Sequence record: KX377933
DNA from: Escherichia phage vB_EcoM_Alf5
DNA length: 64,000 nucleotides
Strand: one strand, 5' to 3'
In this document: positions 1,272-1,456 of the stretch, piece by piece
How the letters are laid out: each line of letters starts with the position of its first letter
Position numbering within the stretch: position 1 is the stretch's first letter
Made by a program: the position numbers and the translations under genes
The notes under the pieces: generated by a model
The model's database searches: none
What the model saw: the letters and a program-made list of their open reading frames with translations, nothing else
What the model was told of the DNA's origin: nothing

Positions 1272-1456
1272 CCAATTTTGAGAGGACTATTTAGCCCCTC
1301 CCTTAAAGAGTTCTTACGAGTATTCTTTAAAGGAGCAGAAGACCAAATTCAGCAAGAACGTATGAAATTTCAAGCCAATTTAATTTTGAAAATTTAAACT
1401 TGGTCTGGCTCAACAAATTTACAGAAGACCGTTTACAGCAAAACTTAAACAATCTA

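What the first reader, a model, noticed from the sequence alone, without database searches (positions are those of the whole stretch)
1303..1330. Conserved 14-nt loop GTTCTTACGAG(T/A)AT presented on hairpins with compensatory stem changes
The same loop sequence sits on different stems at two places in the tRNA array: TTAAAGA/TCTTTAA here and TAAGG/CCTTA at 4688-4711, the latter extended by CCAC/GTGG. Covariation in the stem with a conserved loop argues for a functional RNA hairpin, such as a processing or protein-binding site in the tRNA precursor.
Basis: seen in the sequence. Interest (0 to 1): 0.55.

Follow-up and report, generated by a model that had tools for sequence, protein, structure and literature searches.

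The report
Conserved UACG-capped RNA hairpin family
Two copies of a roughly 40-base RNA hairpin sit in the tRNA gene array of a Felix O1-like phage; its shape is kept by compensating mutations and resembles the hairpins that host RNase III cuts to separate phage RNAs, so it is probably a known kind of processing or stability signal.

Summary
The window is a Felix O1-like phage (Felixounavirus). However, the "14-nt loop" is not a loop. It pairs with itself (UUCU/AGAR) around a UACG tetraloop.

Each site is one extended hairpin with the same layout:
- a tetraloop;
- an upper stem of about 12 bp;
- a single mismatch or small internal loop at about position 13;
- a lower stem of 4-5 bp.

Covariation is real, both within Felix-like phages (A-U, G-U and G-C versions) and across lineages. 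The same core lies on different stems in an Erwinia Kolesnikvirus tRNA array, a T5-like tRNA region, Kuraviruses and two uncultured phages. It is always on the transcribed strand and usually between genes. A covariance model finds three more copies in the window at 33.4-34.8 kb on the minus strand, so the element is not specific to tRNAs.

[quoted passage not shown] My best explanation is an RNase III-type processing or stability hairpin (about 0.45). Cleavage is untested.

Side result: the spacer after copy 1 holds a YrlA-like permuted tRNA-mimic RNA, and the gene upstream of the array has a Ro60 fold.

The parts
1298..1335 (+). Hairpin copy 1. Lower stem CUCC 1298-1301 with GGAG 1332-1335. 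C1302·A1331 mismatch. Upper stem 1303-1314 with 1319-1330, containing a G1310·U1323 wobble and a U1312·U1321 mismatch. UACG loop 1315-1318. It starts 24 nt after tRNA-Asp (which ends at 1274) and ends directly against the stem-loop that begins at 1336.
   Evidence: Sequence; fold; pairing drawn; model hit at 1295-1338, 54.4 bits; variants with compensatory changes.
4680..4719 (+). Hairpin copy 2, filling the spacer between tRNA-Gln(CUG) and tRNA-His. Lower stem GCCAC 4680-4684 (discriminator base, CCA and one more base of tRNA-Gln) with GUGGC 4715-4719 (5' end of tRNA-His). 3x3 internal loop UUC 4685-4687 against AAU 4712-4714. Upper stem 4688-4697 with 4702-4711. UACG loop 4698-4701.
   Evidence: Sequence; tRNA coordinates; fold at -11 kcal/mol, z = -4.0; model hit at 4678-4721, 58 bits; in locus L018 the internal loop is replaced by three pairs, giving a perfect 18-bp helix.
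33537..33580 (-). Related copy on the minus strand: UUAAAAGGUCUU-UAAG-AGGGUCUUUUAA. It has 12 bp, a U·U mismatch and a CCUU/AAGG lower stem. It lies directly after a UUCG-capped terminator that follows the ORF at 33605-34045.
   Evidence: Model hit, 38.7 bits, E = 5.9e-8; sequence; pairing ||||||||||||.||||.
33385..33428 (-). Second minus-strand copy with the same sequence and layout, inside a repeated intergenic module.
   Evidence: Model hit, 36.1 bits, E = 3.4e-7.
34796..34840 (-). Weaker third minus-strand copy with a 5-7 nt loop (UAAAC) and the same layout of 12 bp, a mismatch, then 6 bp.
   Evidence: Model hit, 23.5 bits, E = 0.0016.

Best explanation
The element is an RNA-level hairpin of about 40 nt, made as part of long polycistronic phage transcripts. 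These include the tRNA and small-RNA array and some protein-coding operons. Its layout is fixed: a tetraloop (UACG in the tRNA-array copies), about 12 bp of upper stem whose top four pairs are conserved (UUCU/AGAR, containing a U-A over U-G step), one mismatch or small internal loop, then 4-5 bp of lower stem.

I propose that it is a site for the host double-strand-specific endonuclease RNase III, of the type used between phage T7 genes. The enzyme would cut at or next to the mismatch. This would separate neighbouring RNAs that RNase P alone cannot free. It would also leave a stable hairpin on the upstream RNA end that protects it from 3' exonucleases.

Predicted consequences in this window:
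- At copy 1, the cut would create the 5' end of the structured small RNAs that start at about 1334-1336.
- At copy 2, the cut would separate tRNA-Gln from tRNA-His within 4685-4687 and 4712-4714.

Shown here: the structure, its covariation, its strand, its layout, its recurrence and its contexts. Inferred: transcription through the sites, and the identity of the nuclease. No cleavage was tested.
For: **Structure and covariation**
- Folds.
- 18-pair helix with 13 pairs changed on both sides; 0 of 500 shuffles reach the observed values.
- Within-site A-U, G-U and G-C series.

**Conserved layout**
- Column 8:37, the 13th position from the loop, is unpaired in 10 of 14 sequences.
- The four pairs below it are kept with CG, UA, GC and AU types.
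- The same pattern appears in the three minus-strand copies.

**Strand**
- G·U and U·G pairs occur at two positions, and model scores are much higher on the transcribed strand.
- Every instance is co-oriented with its flanking genes.

**Match to RNase III requirements (Pertzev and Nicholson 2006, PMC1540722)**
- The minimal substrate is a 34-nt hairpin. It needs an 11-bp helix between the cut and the tetraloop.
- Its distal box is U-A over U-G, and its proximal box is A/U-rich.
- Here U18:A27 lies over U17:G28, and 11 bp below that is the conserved mismatch.

**Comparison with T7**
- The T7 R1.3 region folds as a 4-bp lower stem, a 1x1 mismatch, a 13-bp upper stem and a loop.
- The T7 R1.1 region has AAGGUCAUUC-GCAA-GAGUGGCCUU, with the same UA/UG step and an AAGG/CCUU base.

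**Context**
- The sites are intercistronic, as T7 sites are. Examples: stop codon, 1 nt, hairpin, 32 nt, ATG in L099; hairpin then 25 nt to ATG in the T5-like phage; terminator, hairpin, 20 nt, ATG in L007.
- The copy-1 spacer also contains a covarying 18-24 bp long-range helix, which is a typical RNase III-type duplex.
Against: - No cleavage data exist. The layout argument is after the fact.
- The model built from these hairpins finds nothing significant in T7. The R1.3 site is only the fifth of seven weak hits (8.6 bits, E = 8.9). So there is no sequence-level relationship to validated sites.
- Copy 1 has a U·U mismatch at the proposed distal-box position in all 32 variants seen.
- The minus-strand copies carry the UA/UG step two pairs closer to the loop. 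A fixed measure from that step therefore gives cut sites 2 bp apart.
- At copy 2 the lower stem competes with the acceptor stem of tRNA-His. A two-strand cut with a 2-nt overhang would fall inside that tRNA.
- Related Ounavirinae manage without a hairpin before tRNA-His: the spacer is 3 nt in Erwinia FIfi106 and 15 nt in Pectobacterium Arno162.
- A control scan with the same stem and a UUCG loop also finds real hairpins in unrelated contigs. The conserved core may therefore reflect stability rather than recognition.
Confidence: 0.45

Rival explanations
1. A passive structural element. The hairpin is not cut. It acts as a barrier to 3' exonucleases, or as a folding insulator that keeps neighbouring tRNAs and small RNAs from mispairing. 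It may also act as a 5' or 3' end cap that stabilises the adjacent RNA once RNase P or RNase E has cut nearby.
For: - It is a very stable UNCG-type cap on an otherwise A/U-rich stem.
- It is placed right after stop codons or terminators and 20-32 nt before start codons.
- The same stem with a UUCG cap recurs in unrelated contigs, which is what selection for stability alone would give.
- Terminators in this window also use UUCG or UACG caps.
Against: - A simple barrier does not need a mismatch at a fixed distance from the loop followed by a 4-5 bp lower stem. That layout is kept across lineages and across the copies in this window.
- A stable hairpin 4 nt after the CCA of tRNA-Gln would hinder exonucleolytic 3' trimming unless some enzyme cuts it off.
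Confidence: 0.25
2. A binding site for a specific protein other than RNase III. Candidates are the phage's Ro60-like protein, another phage RNA-binding protein, or a host factor. The protein would recognise the conserved UUCU-UACG-AGAR top of the stem.
For: - Ten contiguous bases, TTCTTACGAG, are invariant in the 14-sequence alignment while the rest of the stem covaries. However, nearly all of these sequences were found by searching for that core.
- Copy 1 lies next to Y-RNA-like structures, and the gene upstream of the array has a Ro60 fold.
Against: - Much of the core conservation comes from how the members were found.
- The three copies found by the model rather than by pattern have a different loop and top: GGUCUU-UAAG-AGGGUC.
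- No gene for the Ro60-like protein appears among the annotated genes of the stretches fetched from the T5-like phage and the Kuravirus. No homology search for it was run, and only about 36-37 kb of each genome was examined.
Confidence: 0.12
3. A by-product with no function. The palindrome would be created and perfected by template-switch mutation, or spread as a small selfish repeat along with the mobile genes that crowd phage tRNA regions.
For: - One Felix-like phage has two substitutions that convert the internal loop of copy 2 into a perfect 18-bp palindrome. This is the signature of templated correction.
- tRNA regions of Felix-like and T5-like phages carry HNH endonuclease genes.
- A T5-like small ORF in its tRNA region is annotated as related to a FelixO1 protein.
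- The minus-strand copies are part of a dispersed repeat, with 528 places in 229 records.
Against: - Templated correction removes mismatches and G·U pairs. Here the mismatch at position 13 and the wobble pairs are retained in nearly all copies and lineages.
- The copies share no flanking homology that would mark a mobile unit.
- Orientation relative to transcription is always the same.
- The pattern was found in only one bacterial-genome contig, which carries the Kuravirus form of the hairpin.
Confidence: 0.08
4. Another known signal: an intrinsic terminator, a DNA-level operator or cruciform, or a mimic of the tRNA-Arg(ACG) anticodon arm for the deaminase TadA, whose motif is UACG (from my own knowledge).
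For: - It is a hairpin with a UACG loop.
- It is an inverted repeat in DNA.
Against: - No U-tract follows either copy. AAAGGAG follows copy 1 and AAAUGUGG follows the upper stem of copy 2. The terminator scan does not list them. One related copy sits directly behind a genuine terminator.
- G·U pairs would be C·A mismatches on the other strand, and the loop is not palindromic. This argues against a DNA site.
- The loop is a 4-nt loop closed by U-A on a 10-12 bp stem, not a 7-nt loop on 5 bp. The related copies have UAAG or UAAAC loops without the ACG.
Confidence: 0.05

Closest known systems
Phage T7 intercistronic RNase III processing signals (R1.1 and R1.3) and the minimal substrate µR1.1 derived from them
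   Same: - They are intergenic hairpins in polycistronic phage transcripts.
- They have a 10-13 bp upper stem under a small loop, a mismatch or internal loop at the cut, and a short lower stem.
- They have a U-A over U-G step near the top and an A/U-rich AAGG/CCUU base.
- The total size is 34-45 nt.
   Different: - There is no detectable sequence or model similarity.
- The loop is UACG rather than GCAA or UAG.
- Two copies sit among tRNAs rather than between protein genes.
- Cleavage is unproven here.
Extra-stable UNCG tetraloop hairpins in phage intercistronic regions (C(UUCG)G hairpins of T4; Tuerk et al. 1988, from my own knowledge)
   Same: - A UNCG-class tetraloop (UACG) caps an intergenic RNA hairpin in a large lytic coliphage.
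- The terminators in this window use the same caps.
   Different: - The closing pair is U-A, not C-G.
- The stem is long, A/U-rich and has a fixed mismatch position.
- Related copies in the same genome use a non-UNCG loop (UAAG).
The RNase III-cleaved stem-loop downstream of tRNA metY in the E. coli metY-nusA-infB operon (from my own knowledge, not checked here)
   Same: A double-stranded processing hairpin placed directly after a tRNA inside a polycistronic transcript. It separates the tRNA from what follows.
   Different: - It is a host operon with an unrelated sequence.
- I made no comparison of its structure.

Membership tests
E. coli RNase III processing signal (T7 R1.1/R1.3 type) | A double helix of at least 11 bp between the scissile bond and the hairpin loop, with a few more pairs or nucleotides below it | tested here: met
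   The upper stem is 12 bp (10 bp at copy 2) and the lower stem is 4-5 bp, in all lineages and all copies in this window. The criterion is taken from PMC1540722.
E. coli RNase III processing signal (T7 R1.1/R1.3 type) | A distal box of U-A over U-G about 10-11 bp from the cut | tested here: inconclusive
   U18:A27 lies over U17:G28 in 10 of 14 aligned sequences. In this window's copy 2 the second pair is U-A. In copy 1 the first pair is U·U. The box sits two pairs below the loop here, and next to the loop in the minus-strand copies.
E. coli RNase III processing signal (T7 R1.1/R1.3 type) | A mismatch or internal loop at the cleavage site, as in single-cut T7 sites, with A/U-rich pairs beside it | tested here: met
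   Column 8:37 is unpaired in 10 of 14 sequences. Columns 9-11 are mostly U-A or A-U. The T7 R1.3 region folds with the same arrangement of 4 bp, a 1x1 mismatch and 13 bp.
E. coli RNase III processing signal (T7 R1.1/R1.3 type) | Sequence and structure similarity to validated sites | tested here: not met
   Model R1 searched against the whole T7 genome with filters off: the best hit overlapping a known site is R1.3 at 8.6 bits, E = 8.9.
E. coli RNase III processing signal (T7 R1.1/R1.3 type) | Cleavage by RNase III in vitro, or rnc-dependent RNA ends in vivo | not testable with these tools
   Searches of the held papers for the core sequence found no relevant paper. A keyword search on Felixounavirus promoters, terminators and tRNA surfaced no transcript-mapping study in the titles listed; none of those papers was opened.
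Intrinsic (Rho-independent) terminator | A G+C-rich hairpin followed directly by a run of U | tested here: not met
   Neither copy is in the terminator scan. AAAGGAG follows copy 1, and AAAUGUGG follows the upper stem of copy 2.
Any curated RNA family (Rfam 15) | A match to a covariance model at or near its gathering score | tested here: not met
   No family other than tRNA matches at either site at E up to 1, or up to 10 for positions 1275-1705.
tRNA-Arg(ACG) anticodon-arm mimic (TadA substrate) | UACG presented in a 7-nt loop on a stem of about 5 bp | tested here: not met
   The loop is a 4-nt loop closed by U-A on a 10-12 bp stem. The related copies have UAAG or UAAAC loops. The definition of the family is from my own knowledge.
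YrlA-type bacterial Y RNA (for the neighbouring element at 1418-1556, not the hairpin) | The order basal stem, V, T-arm, closed acceptor-like stem, D-arm; a Ro60 gene nearby; a match to Rfam RF02553 | tested here: inconclusive
   The order and the covarying closed stem are met (definition from PMC4201824). The upstream gene has a Ro60 fold. RF02553 does not match.

The most novel reading that the evidence does not exclude
The hairpin is not just another RNase III-like stem. It would be a sequence-specific module (UUCU-UACG-AGAR on a measured stem) exchanged horizontally among unrelated enterobacterial phages: Ounavirinae, T5-like phages and Kuraviruses. A dedicated factor would read it. In Felix-like phages it would mark the boundary at which a phage Ro60/Y-RNA particle is cut out of the tRNA operon. 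This would link tRNA supply to RNA quality control during infection.
Probability: 0.1. Interest if true: 0.7.

Novelty: new member of a known kind. Interest (0 to 1): 0.42.

Why it matters
Large lytic phages carry long tRNA arrays interleaved with small genes and non-tRNA RNAs. How these transcripts are cut apart is largely unstudied outside T4.

A conserved hairpin of measured length gives a concrete, testable processing signal, with cut positions predicted to within a few bases. It recurs at different places in the arrays of several phage groups and also between protein genes.

It also drew attention to its neighbours. These are a covarying tRNA-mimic RNA and a Ro60-fold protein gene, which suggest a Ro/Y-RNA particle in a widely used group of therapeutic and typing phages.

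If the hairpin is only a stabilising stem, the result is ordinary.

Tried and rejected
**Rejected explanations**
- **Terminator.** There is no U-tract, and neither copy is in the scan.
- **Coding region.** The 107-aa minus-strand ORF abutting copy 1 translates to low-complexity junk.
- **Known RNA family.** There are no Rfam hits.
- **Relic of a larger module transferred between Felix-like and T5-like phages.** BLAST of the T5-like gap against the window matches only the 26-29 nt hairpin. The downstream T5-like ORF has no relative in the window.
- **Host element.** A scan of 185,579 bacterial and archaeal genomes found one contig, which carries the Kuravirus form of the hairpin.
- **TadA or anticodon mimic.** The loop size and the related copies argue against it.

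**Searches that added nothing**
- Literature searches for the core sequence (TTCTTACGAG and UUCUUACGAG) returned nothing relevant.
- The metagenome scan added no new lineage with this layout. It returned only Felix-like and Kuravirus copies, plus one terminator-like and one short hit.
- Pfam gave nothing for the genes next to the minus-strand copies or for the T5-like ORF.
- The first protein search, with the truncated C-terminus, returned only fragments.

**Is the core unique?**
- A control scan with a UUCG loop on the same stem found an unrelated hairpin family on 3.5-4.3 kb contigs and a few others.
- So a shared core alone does not prove common function across distant phages.
- Two pattern hits with long stems lie inside coding sequence (L024, L090). 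I left them out of the family.

**Homology to T7 sites.** The model finds nothing significant in T7.

Full report
**Identity of the window**

The first 6.5 kb match Salmonella phage Felix O1 and more than 230 relatives at 95-98% identity over most of their length. The window is therefore a Felixounavirus.

ARAGORN finds 24 tRNA genes between 546 and 5797, all on the + strand. In Felix O1 the same array is interrupted by HNH endonuclease genes.

**Checking the observation**

The two sequences are exactly as described.
- Copy 1 is TTAAAGA / GTTCTTACGAGTAT / TCTTTAA at 1303-1330.
- Copy 2 is TAAGG / GTTCTTACGAGAAT / CCTTA at 4688-4711, flanked by CCAC and GTGG.

The 14-mer pattern occurs only at these two places in 64 kb. 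With up to two mismatches there are 4 matches against 1.07 expected.

The description as a 14-nt loop does not hold. Folding shows that the 14 nt pair with themselves around a UACG tetraloop.
- Copy 2 is a continuous 10-bp stem (-11 kcal/mol, z = -4.0).
- Copy 1 is a 12-bp stem with one U·U mismatch, continued by CUCC/GGAG after a C·A mismatch.

**Variation within Felix-like phages**

Pattern scans of viral and metagenome contigs and BLAST of the phage collection show both sites in about 240-250 Felixounavirus, Suspvirus and Mooglevirus records.

Among 32 copies of site 1, one stem pair occurs as A-U (13), G-U (4), G-C (9) and once as A·C. The U·U mismatch and the C·A mismatch persist in nearly all copies.

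Among 43 copies of site 2, one pair alternates between G·U and A-U, and another between U·G and U-A. One phage (locus L018, an 86,252-nt contig) carries two substitutions that turn the 3x3 internal loop into three pairs. This gives a perfect 18-bp helix that runs into the tRNA ends.

The G·U intermediates pair only on the + strand.

**The same core elsewhere**

- Erwinia phage FIfi106 (Kolesnikvirus, same subfamily) has AAAGGUUCU-UACG-AGAGUCUUU at a third position, ending just before tRNA-Leu(CAA). It has only a 3-nt spacer before tRNA-His.
- Pectobacterium phage Arno162 has no copy.
- T5-like Salmonella phages (Epseptimavirus) have UUUAAGAGUUCU-UACG-AGAGUUCUUAAA in their tRNA region, 25 nt before an ORF.
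- Kuraviruses, including a contig whose length (77,554 nt) matches phiEco32 as I recall it, have GAAGGAUUCU-UACG-AGAGUCCUUUG 8 nt after a stop codon.
- Two uncultured phage contigs carry it between co-oriented genes. In L007 it follows a terminator and lies 20 nt before an ATG. In L099 it lies 1 nt after a stop codon and 32 nt before an ATG.
- In every case the hairpin has the orientation of the surrounding genes.
- A scan of bacterial and archaeal genomes found only one contig, which carries the Kuravirus form of the hairpin.

**Covariation and layout**

An ungapped 44-column alignment of 14 sequences from these lineages supports an 18-pair helix.
- 87.7% of cells are paired, against 73% in shuffles and 41-54% when the 3' partners are slid.
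- 13 pairs have changes on both sides.
- 0 of 500 shuffles reach the observed values.

Most informative is a layout that played no part in choosing most members.
- The 13th position from the loop is unpaired in 10 of 14 sequences.
- The next four pairs are kept with entirely different sequences (CG, UA, GC, AU).
- L099 was added after I had seen its lower stem, so it is not an independent test.

**More copies in the window**

A covariance model of this layout recovers all members at 47-59 bits on the transcribed strand and 16-30 bits on the other.

It also finds three further copies in the window on the minus strand, at 33537-33580, 33385-33428 and 34796-34840 (38.7, 36.1 and 23.5 bits).
- They read UUAAAAGGUCUU-UAAG-AGGGUCUUUUAA.
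- They have the same 12 bp, one mismatch, then 4-6 bp.
- The genes there are on the minus strand.
- These copies belong to a dispersed intergenic repeat with 528 places in 229 Felix-like records.

The element is therefore a family of intergenic RNA hairpins, not a feature of tRNA precursors alone.

**How specific is the conserved core?**

Nearly all members outside the window were found by searching for the core, so its invariance is partly built in.

A control scan with the same stem and a UUCG loop returned a comparable number of real hairpins. These include a large family on 3.5-4.3 kb contigs. Two pattern hits with long stems lie inside coding sequence.

I therefore treat the Ounavirinae copies as certainly related. 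The T5-like and Kuravirus copies are probably related, given the same layout and enterobacterial hosts; the T5-like copy lies in that phage's tRNA region, and the Kuravirus copy about 1.5 kb from its tRNA-Arg gene. The two uncultured contigs are possibly related.

**Mechanism**

The layout is that of an E. coli RNase III hairpin substrate. Pertzev and Nicholson (PMC1540722) report the following:
- The minimal substrate is a 34-nt hairpin.
- An 11-bp helix between the cut and the tetraloop is the shortest reactive length.
- The distal box is U-A over U-G.
- The proximal box next to the cut is A/U-rich.

In our hairpins U-A lies over U-G at the third and fourth pairs from the loop. Eleven pairs below that is the conserved mismatch.

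My own folds of T7 give:
- for the R1.3 region, a 4-bp lower stem, a 1x1 mismatch, a 13-bp upper stem and a loop;
- for the R1.1 region, AAGGUCAUUC-GCAA-GAGUGGCCUU, with the same UA/UG step and AAGG/CCUU base.

The names and positions of these T7 sites are from my own knowledge; the record does not annotate them.

The intercistronic placement also matches T7. The prediction is a cut at or beside the mismatch: near 1302/1331 for copy 1, and within 4685-4687/4712-4714 for copy 2.
- At copy 1 this would create the 5' end of the structured RNAs that begin at 1336.
- At copy 2 it would free tRNA-Gln with a very short trailer and leave 0-3 nt for RNase P to remove before tRNA-His.

Against this:
- The model finds nothing significant in T7 (R1.3 is a weak fifth hit).
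- Copy 1 lacks the canonical distal box.
- The position of the UA/UG step differs by two pairs between the copies in this window.
- Relatives manage without the hairpin before tRNA-His.

I put this explanation at about 0.45. A non-cleaved stabiliser or insulator is at 0.25, another protein partner at 0.12, a by-product at 0.08, and other known signals at about 0.05 together.

**Neighbourhood of copy 1**

The 430-nt spacer between tRNA-Asp and tRNA-Lys is non-coding. It is more conserved than expected and strongly structured (z = -3.7). It contains the following elements.

- **A permuted tRNA-like RNA at 1418-1556.**
  - It has a T-arm, a closed acceptor-like stem and a D-arm, in that order.
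  - The closed stem occurs in three fully different but complementary versions across Felix-like phages: ACUCGGC/GUCGAGU, ACACGU/GCGUGU and ACCCUUC/GAAGGGU.
  - RNAalifold adds a bulged basal stem and a V hairpin.
  - This is the architecture described for YrlA Y RNAs (PMC4201824).
  - The Rfam YrlA model does not match it.
- **A shorter stem-loop at 1336-1409.** It has the same basal-stem motif (CAGAAGACC...GGUCUGG).
- **A long-range helix, 1555-1578 with 1675-1698.** It is 18-24 bp and has several compensatory changes.

The gene just upstream of the array (Felix O1 ORF42; its C-terminus is window 1-380) carries DUF2828 and DUF7788. PHROGs calls its family an RNA-binding protein.

An AlphaFold model of a 98%-identical homologue has mean pLDDT 87.5. 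Its six best PDB matches are all Ro60/TROVE structures, with E from 1e-7 to 3e-6 and TM-scores of 0.47-0.65.

Together these point to a phage Ro60-like protein with Y-RNA-like partners embedded in the tRNA array. Ro60 with nearby Y RNAs in phages is a known theme. I could not find out whether the Felix O1 group has been reported, because no supplementary files of that paper are held.

**Verdict**

The element is a conserved, measured RNA hairpin family on the transcribed strand.

It is most simply read as a new member of the known class of phage intergenic processing or stability hairpins, probably RNase III-dependent. The function remains untested.

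Noticed in passing
window 1418-1556 (+): A permuted tRNA-like RNA with a basal bulged stem (UUAC-AGA-AGACCGU with ACGGUCU-G-GUAA), a V hairpin, a T-arm (1476-1492), a closed acceptor-like stem (1493-1510) and a D-arm (1513-1527). The closed stem covaries in three different versions across Felix-like phages. The architecture is that of YrlA Y RNAs, but Rfam RF02553 does not match it.
   Followed up: yes
window 1-380 (+), the C-terminus of the homologue of Felix O1 ORF42 (L073 619-2034): The gene just upstream of the tRNA array (DUF2828 + DUF7788; its PHROG family is called 'RNA-binding protein') has a Ro60/TROVE + vWA fold. The AF2 model has pLDDT 87.5. The six best PDB matches are all Ro60/TROVE, with E from 1e-7 to 3e-6. 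The family has more than 2,500 members, many on large phage contigs.
   Followed up: yes
window 1336-1409 (+): A stem-loop directly after hairpin copy 1. Its basal stem (CAGAAGACCAA with UUGGUCUGG) repeats the motif of the basal stem of the tRNA-like RNA. It may be a second, smaller Y-like RNA.
   Followed up: partly
window 1555-1578 with 1675-1698 (+): A long-range helix of 24 bp (18 bp in a second sequence type) enclosing about 96 nt, just before tRNA-Lys. It has several compensatory changes between Felix-like phages. It could be a processing stalk or a third structured RNA.
   Followed up: partly
window 33290-33610 and 34700-34900 (-): A repeated intergenic module. It consists of a conserved 37-nt box (GGGTAGTTAGTCTCAGCTACATTAAAATGAGACTTACC), the hairpin copy, about 100 nt of G/T-rich GGT-type repeats, and a GGCAG...CUGCC stem. 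It occurs up to 6 times per genome, with 528 places in 229 Felix-like records. No model hit was found in the corresponding Felix O1 interval.
   Followed up: partly
window 2185-2263 and 2768-2842 (+): Weak tRNA-like Rfam hits not called by ARAGORN: tRNA at 31.7 bits, just above the gathering score, and tRNA-Sec at 23 bits. They may be degenerate or unusual tRNA genes in the array.
   Followed up: no
window 3861-3880, compared with L001 5400-5609: ARAGORN calls no tRNA-Arg in the window, whereas Felix O1 is annotated with one between tRNA-Leu(CAA) and the DUF7338 ORF. In the window only about 18 nt separate that tRNA-Leu from the ORF.
   Followed up: no
L018 (86,252-nt Felix-like contig), site 2: Two substitutions (AAT to GAA) turn the internal loop of copy 2 into a perfect 18-bp palindrome spanning the tRNA-Gln 3' end and the tRNA-His 5' end. 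This looks like a templated palindrome correction.
   Followed up: partly
L090 1781-1816: A perfect 16-bp UACG-capped hairpin with the same core lies inside the coding sequence of a 215-aa ORF that follows a long, possibly tail-associated ORF (…MSFGFLRESKGR…) in an unrelated 46-kb phage contig. It is too long to be chance, and I have no explanation for it.
   Followed up: no
L102-L150 (control scan), for example L138, L117 and L143: A family of 10-15 bp hairpins, (C)AGGAUUCU-UUCG-AGAGUCCUGUGG, conserved on many 3.5-4.3 kb viral contigs. These may be single-stranded RNA phage genomes.
   Followed up: no
L074 2714-3130 (Erwinia phage FIfi106): The 417-nt spacer that ends in the hairpin contains what looks like a tRNA with a long insertion (GGGTGAT ... 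GGTTCGAATCC ... ATCACTCGCCA) and a promoter-like TTGACA ... TAATCT.
   Followed up: no
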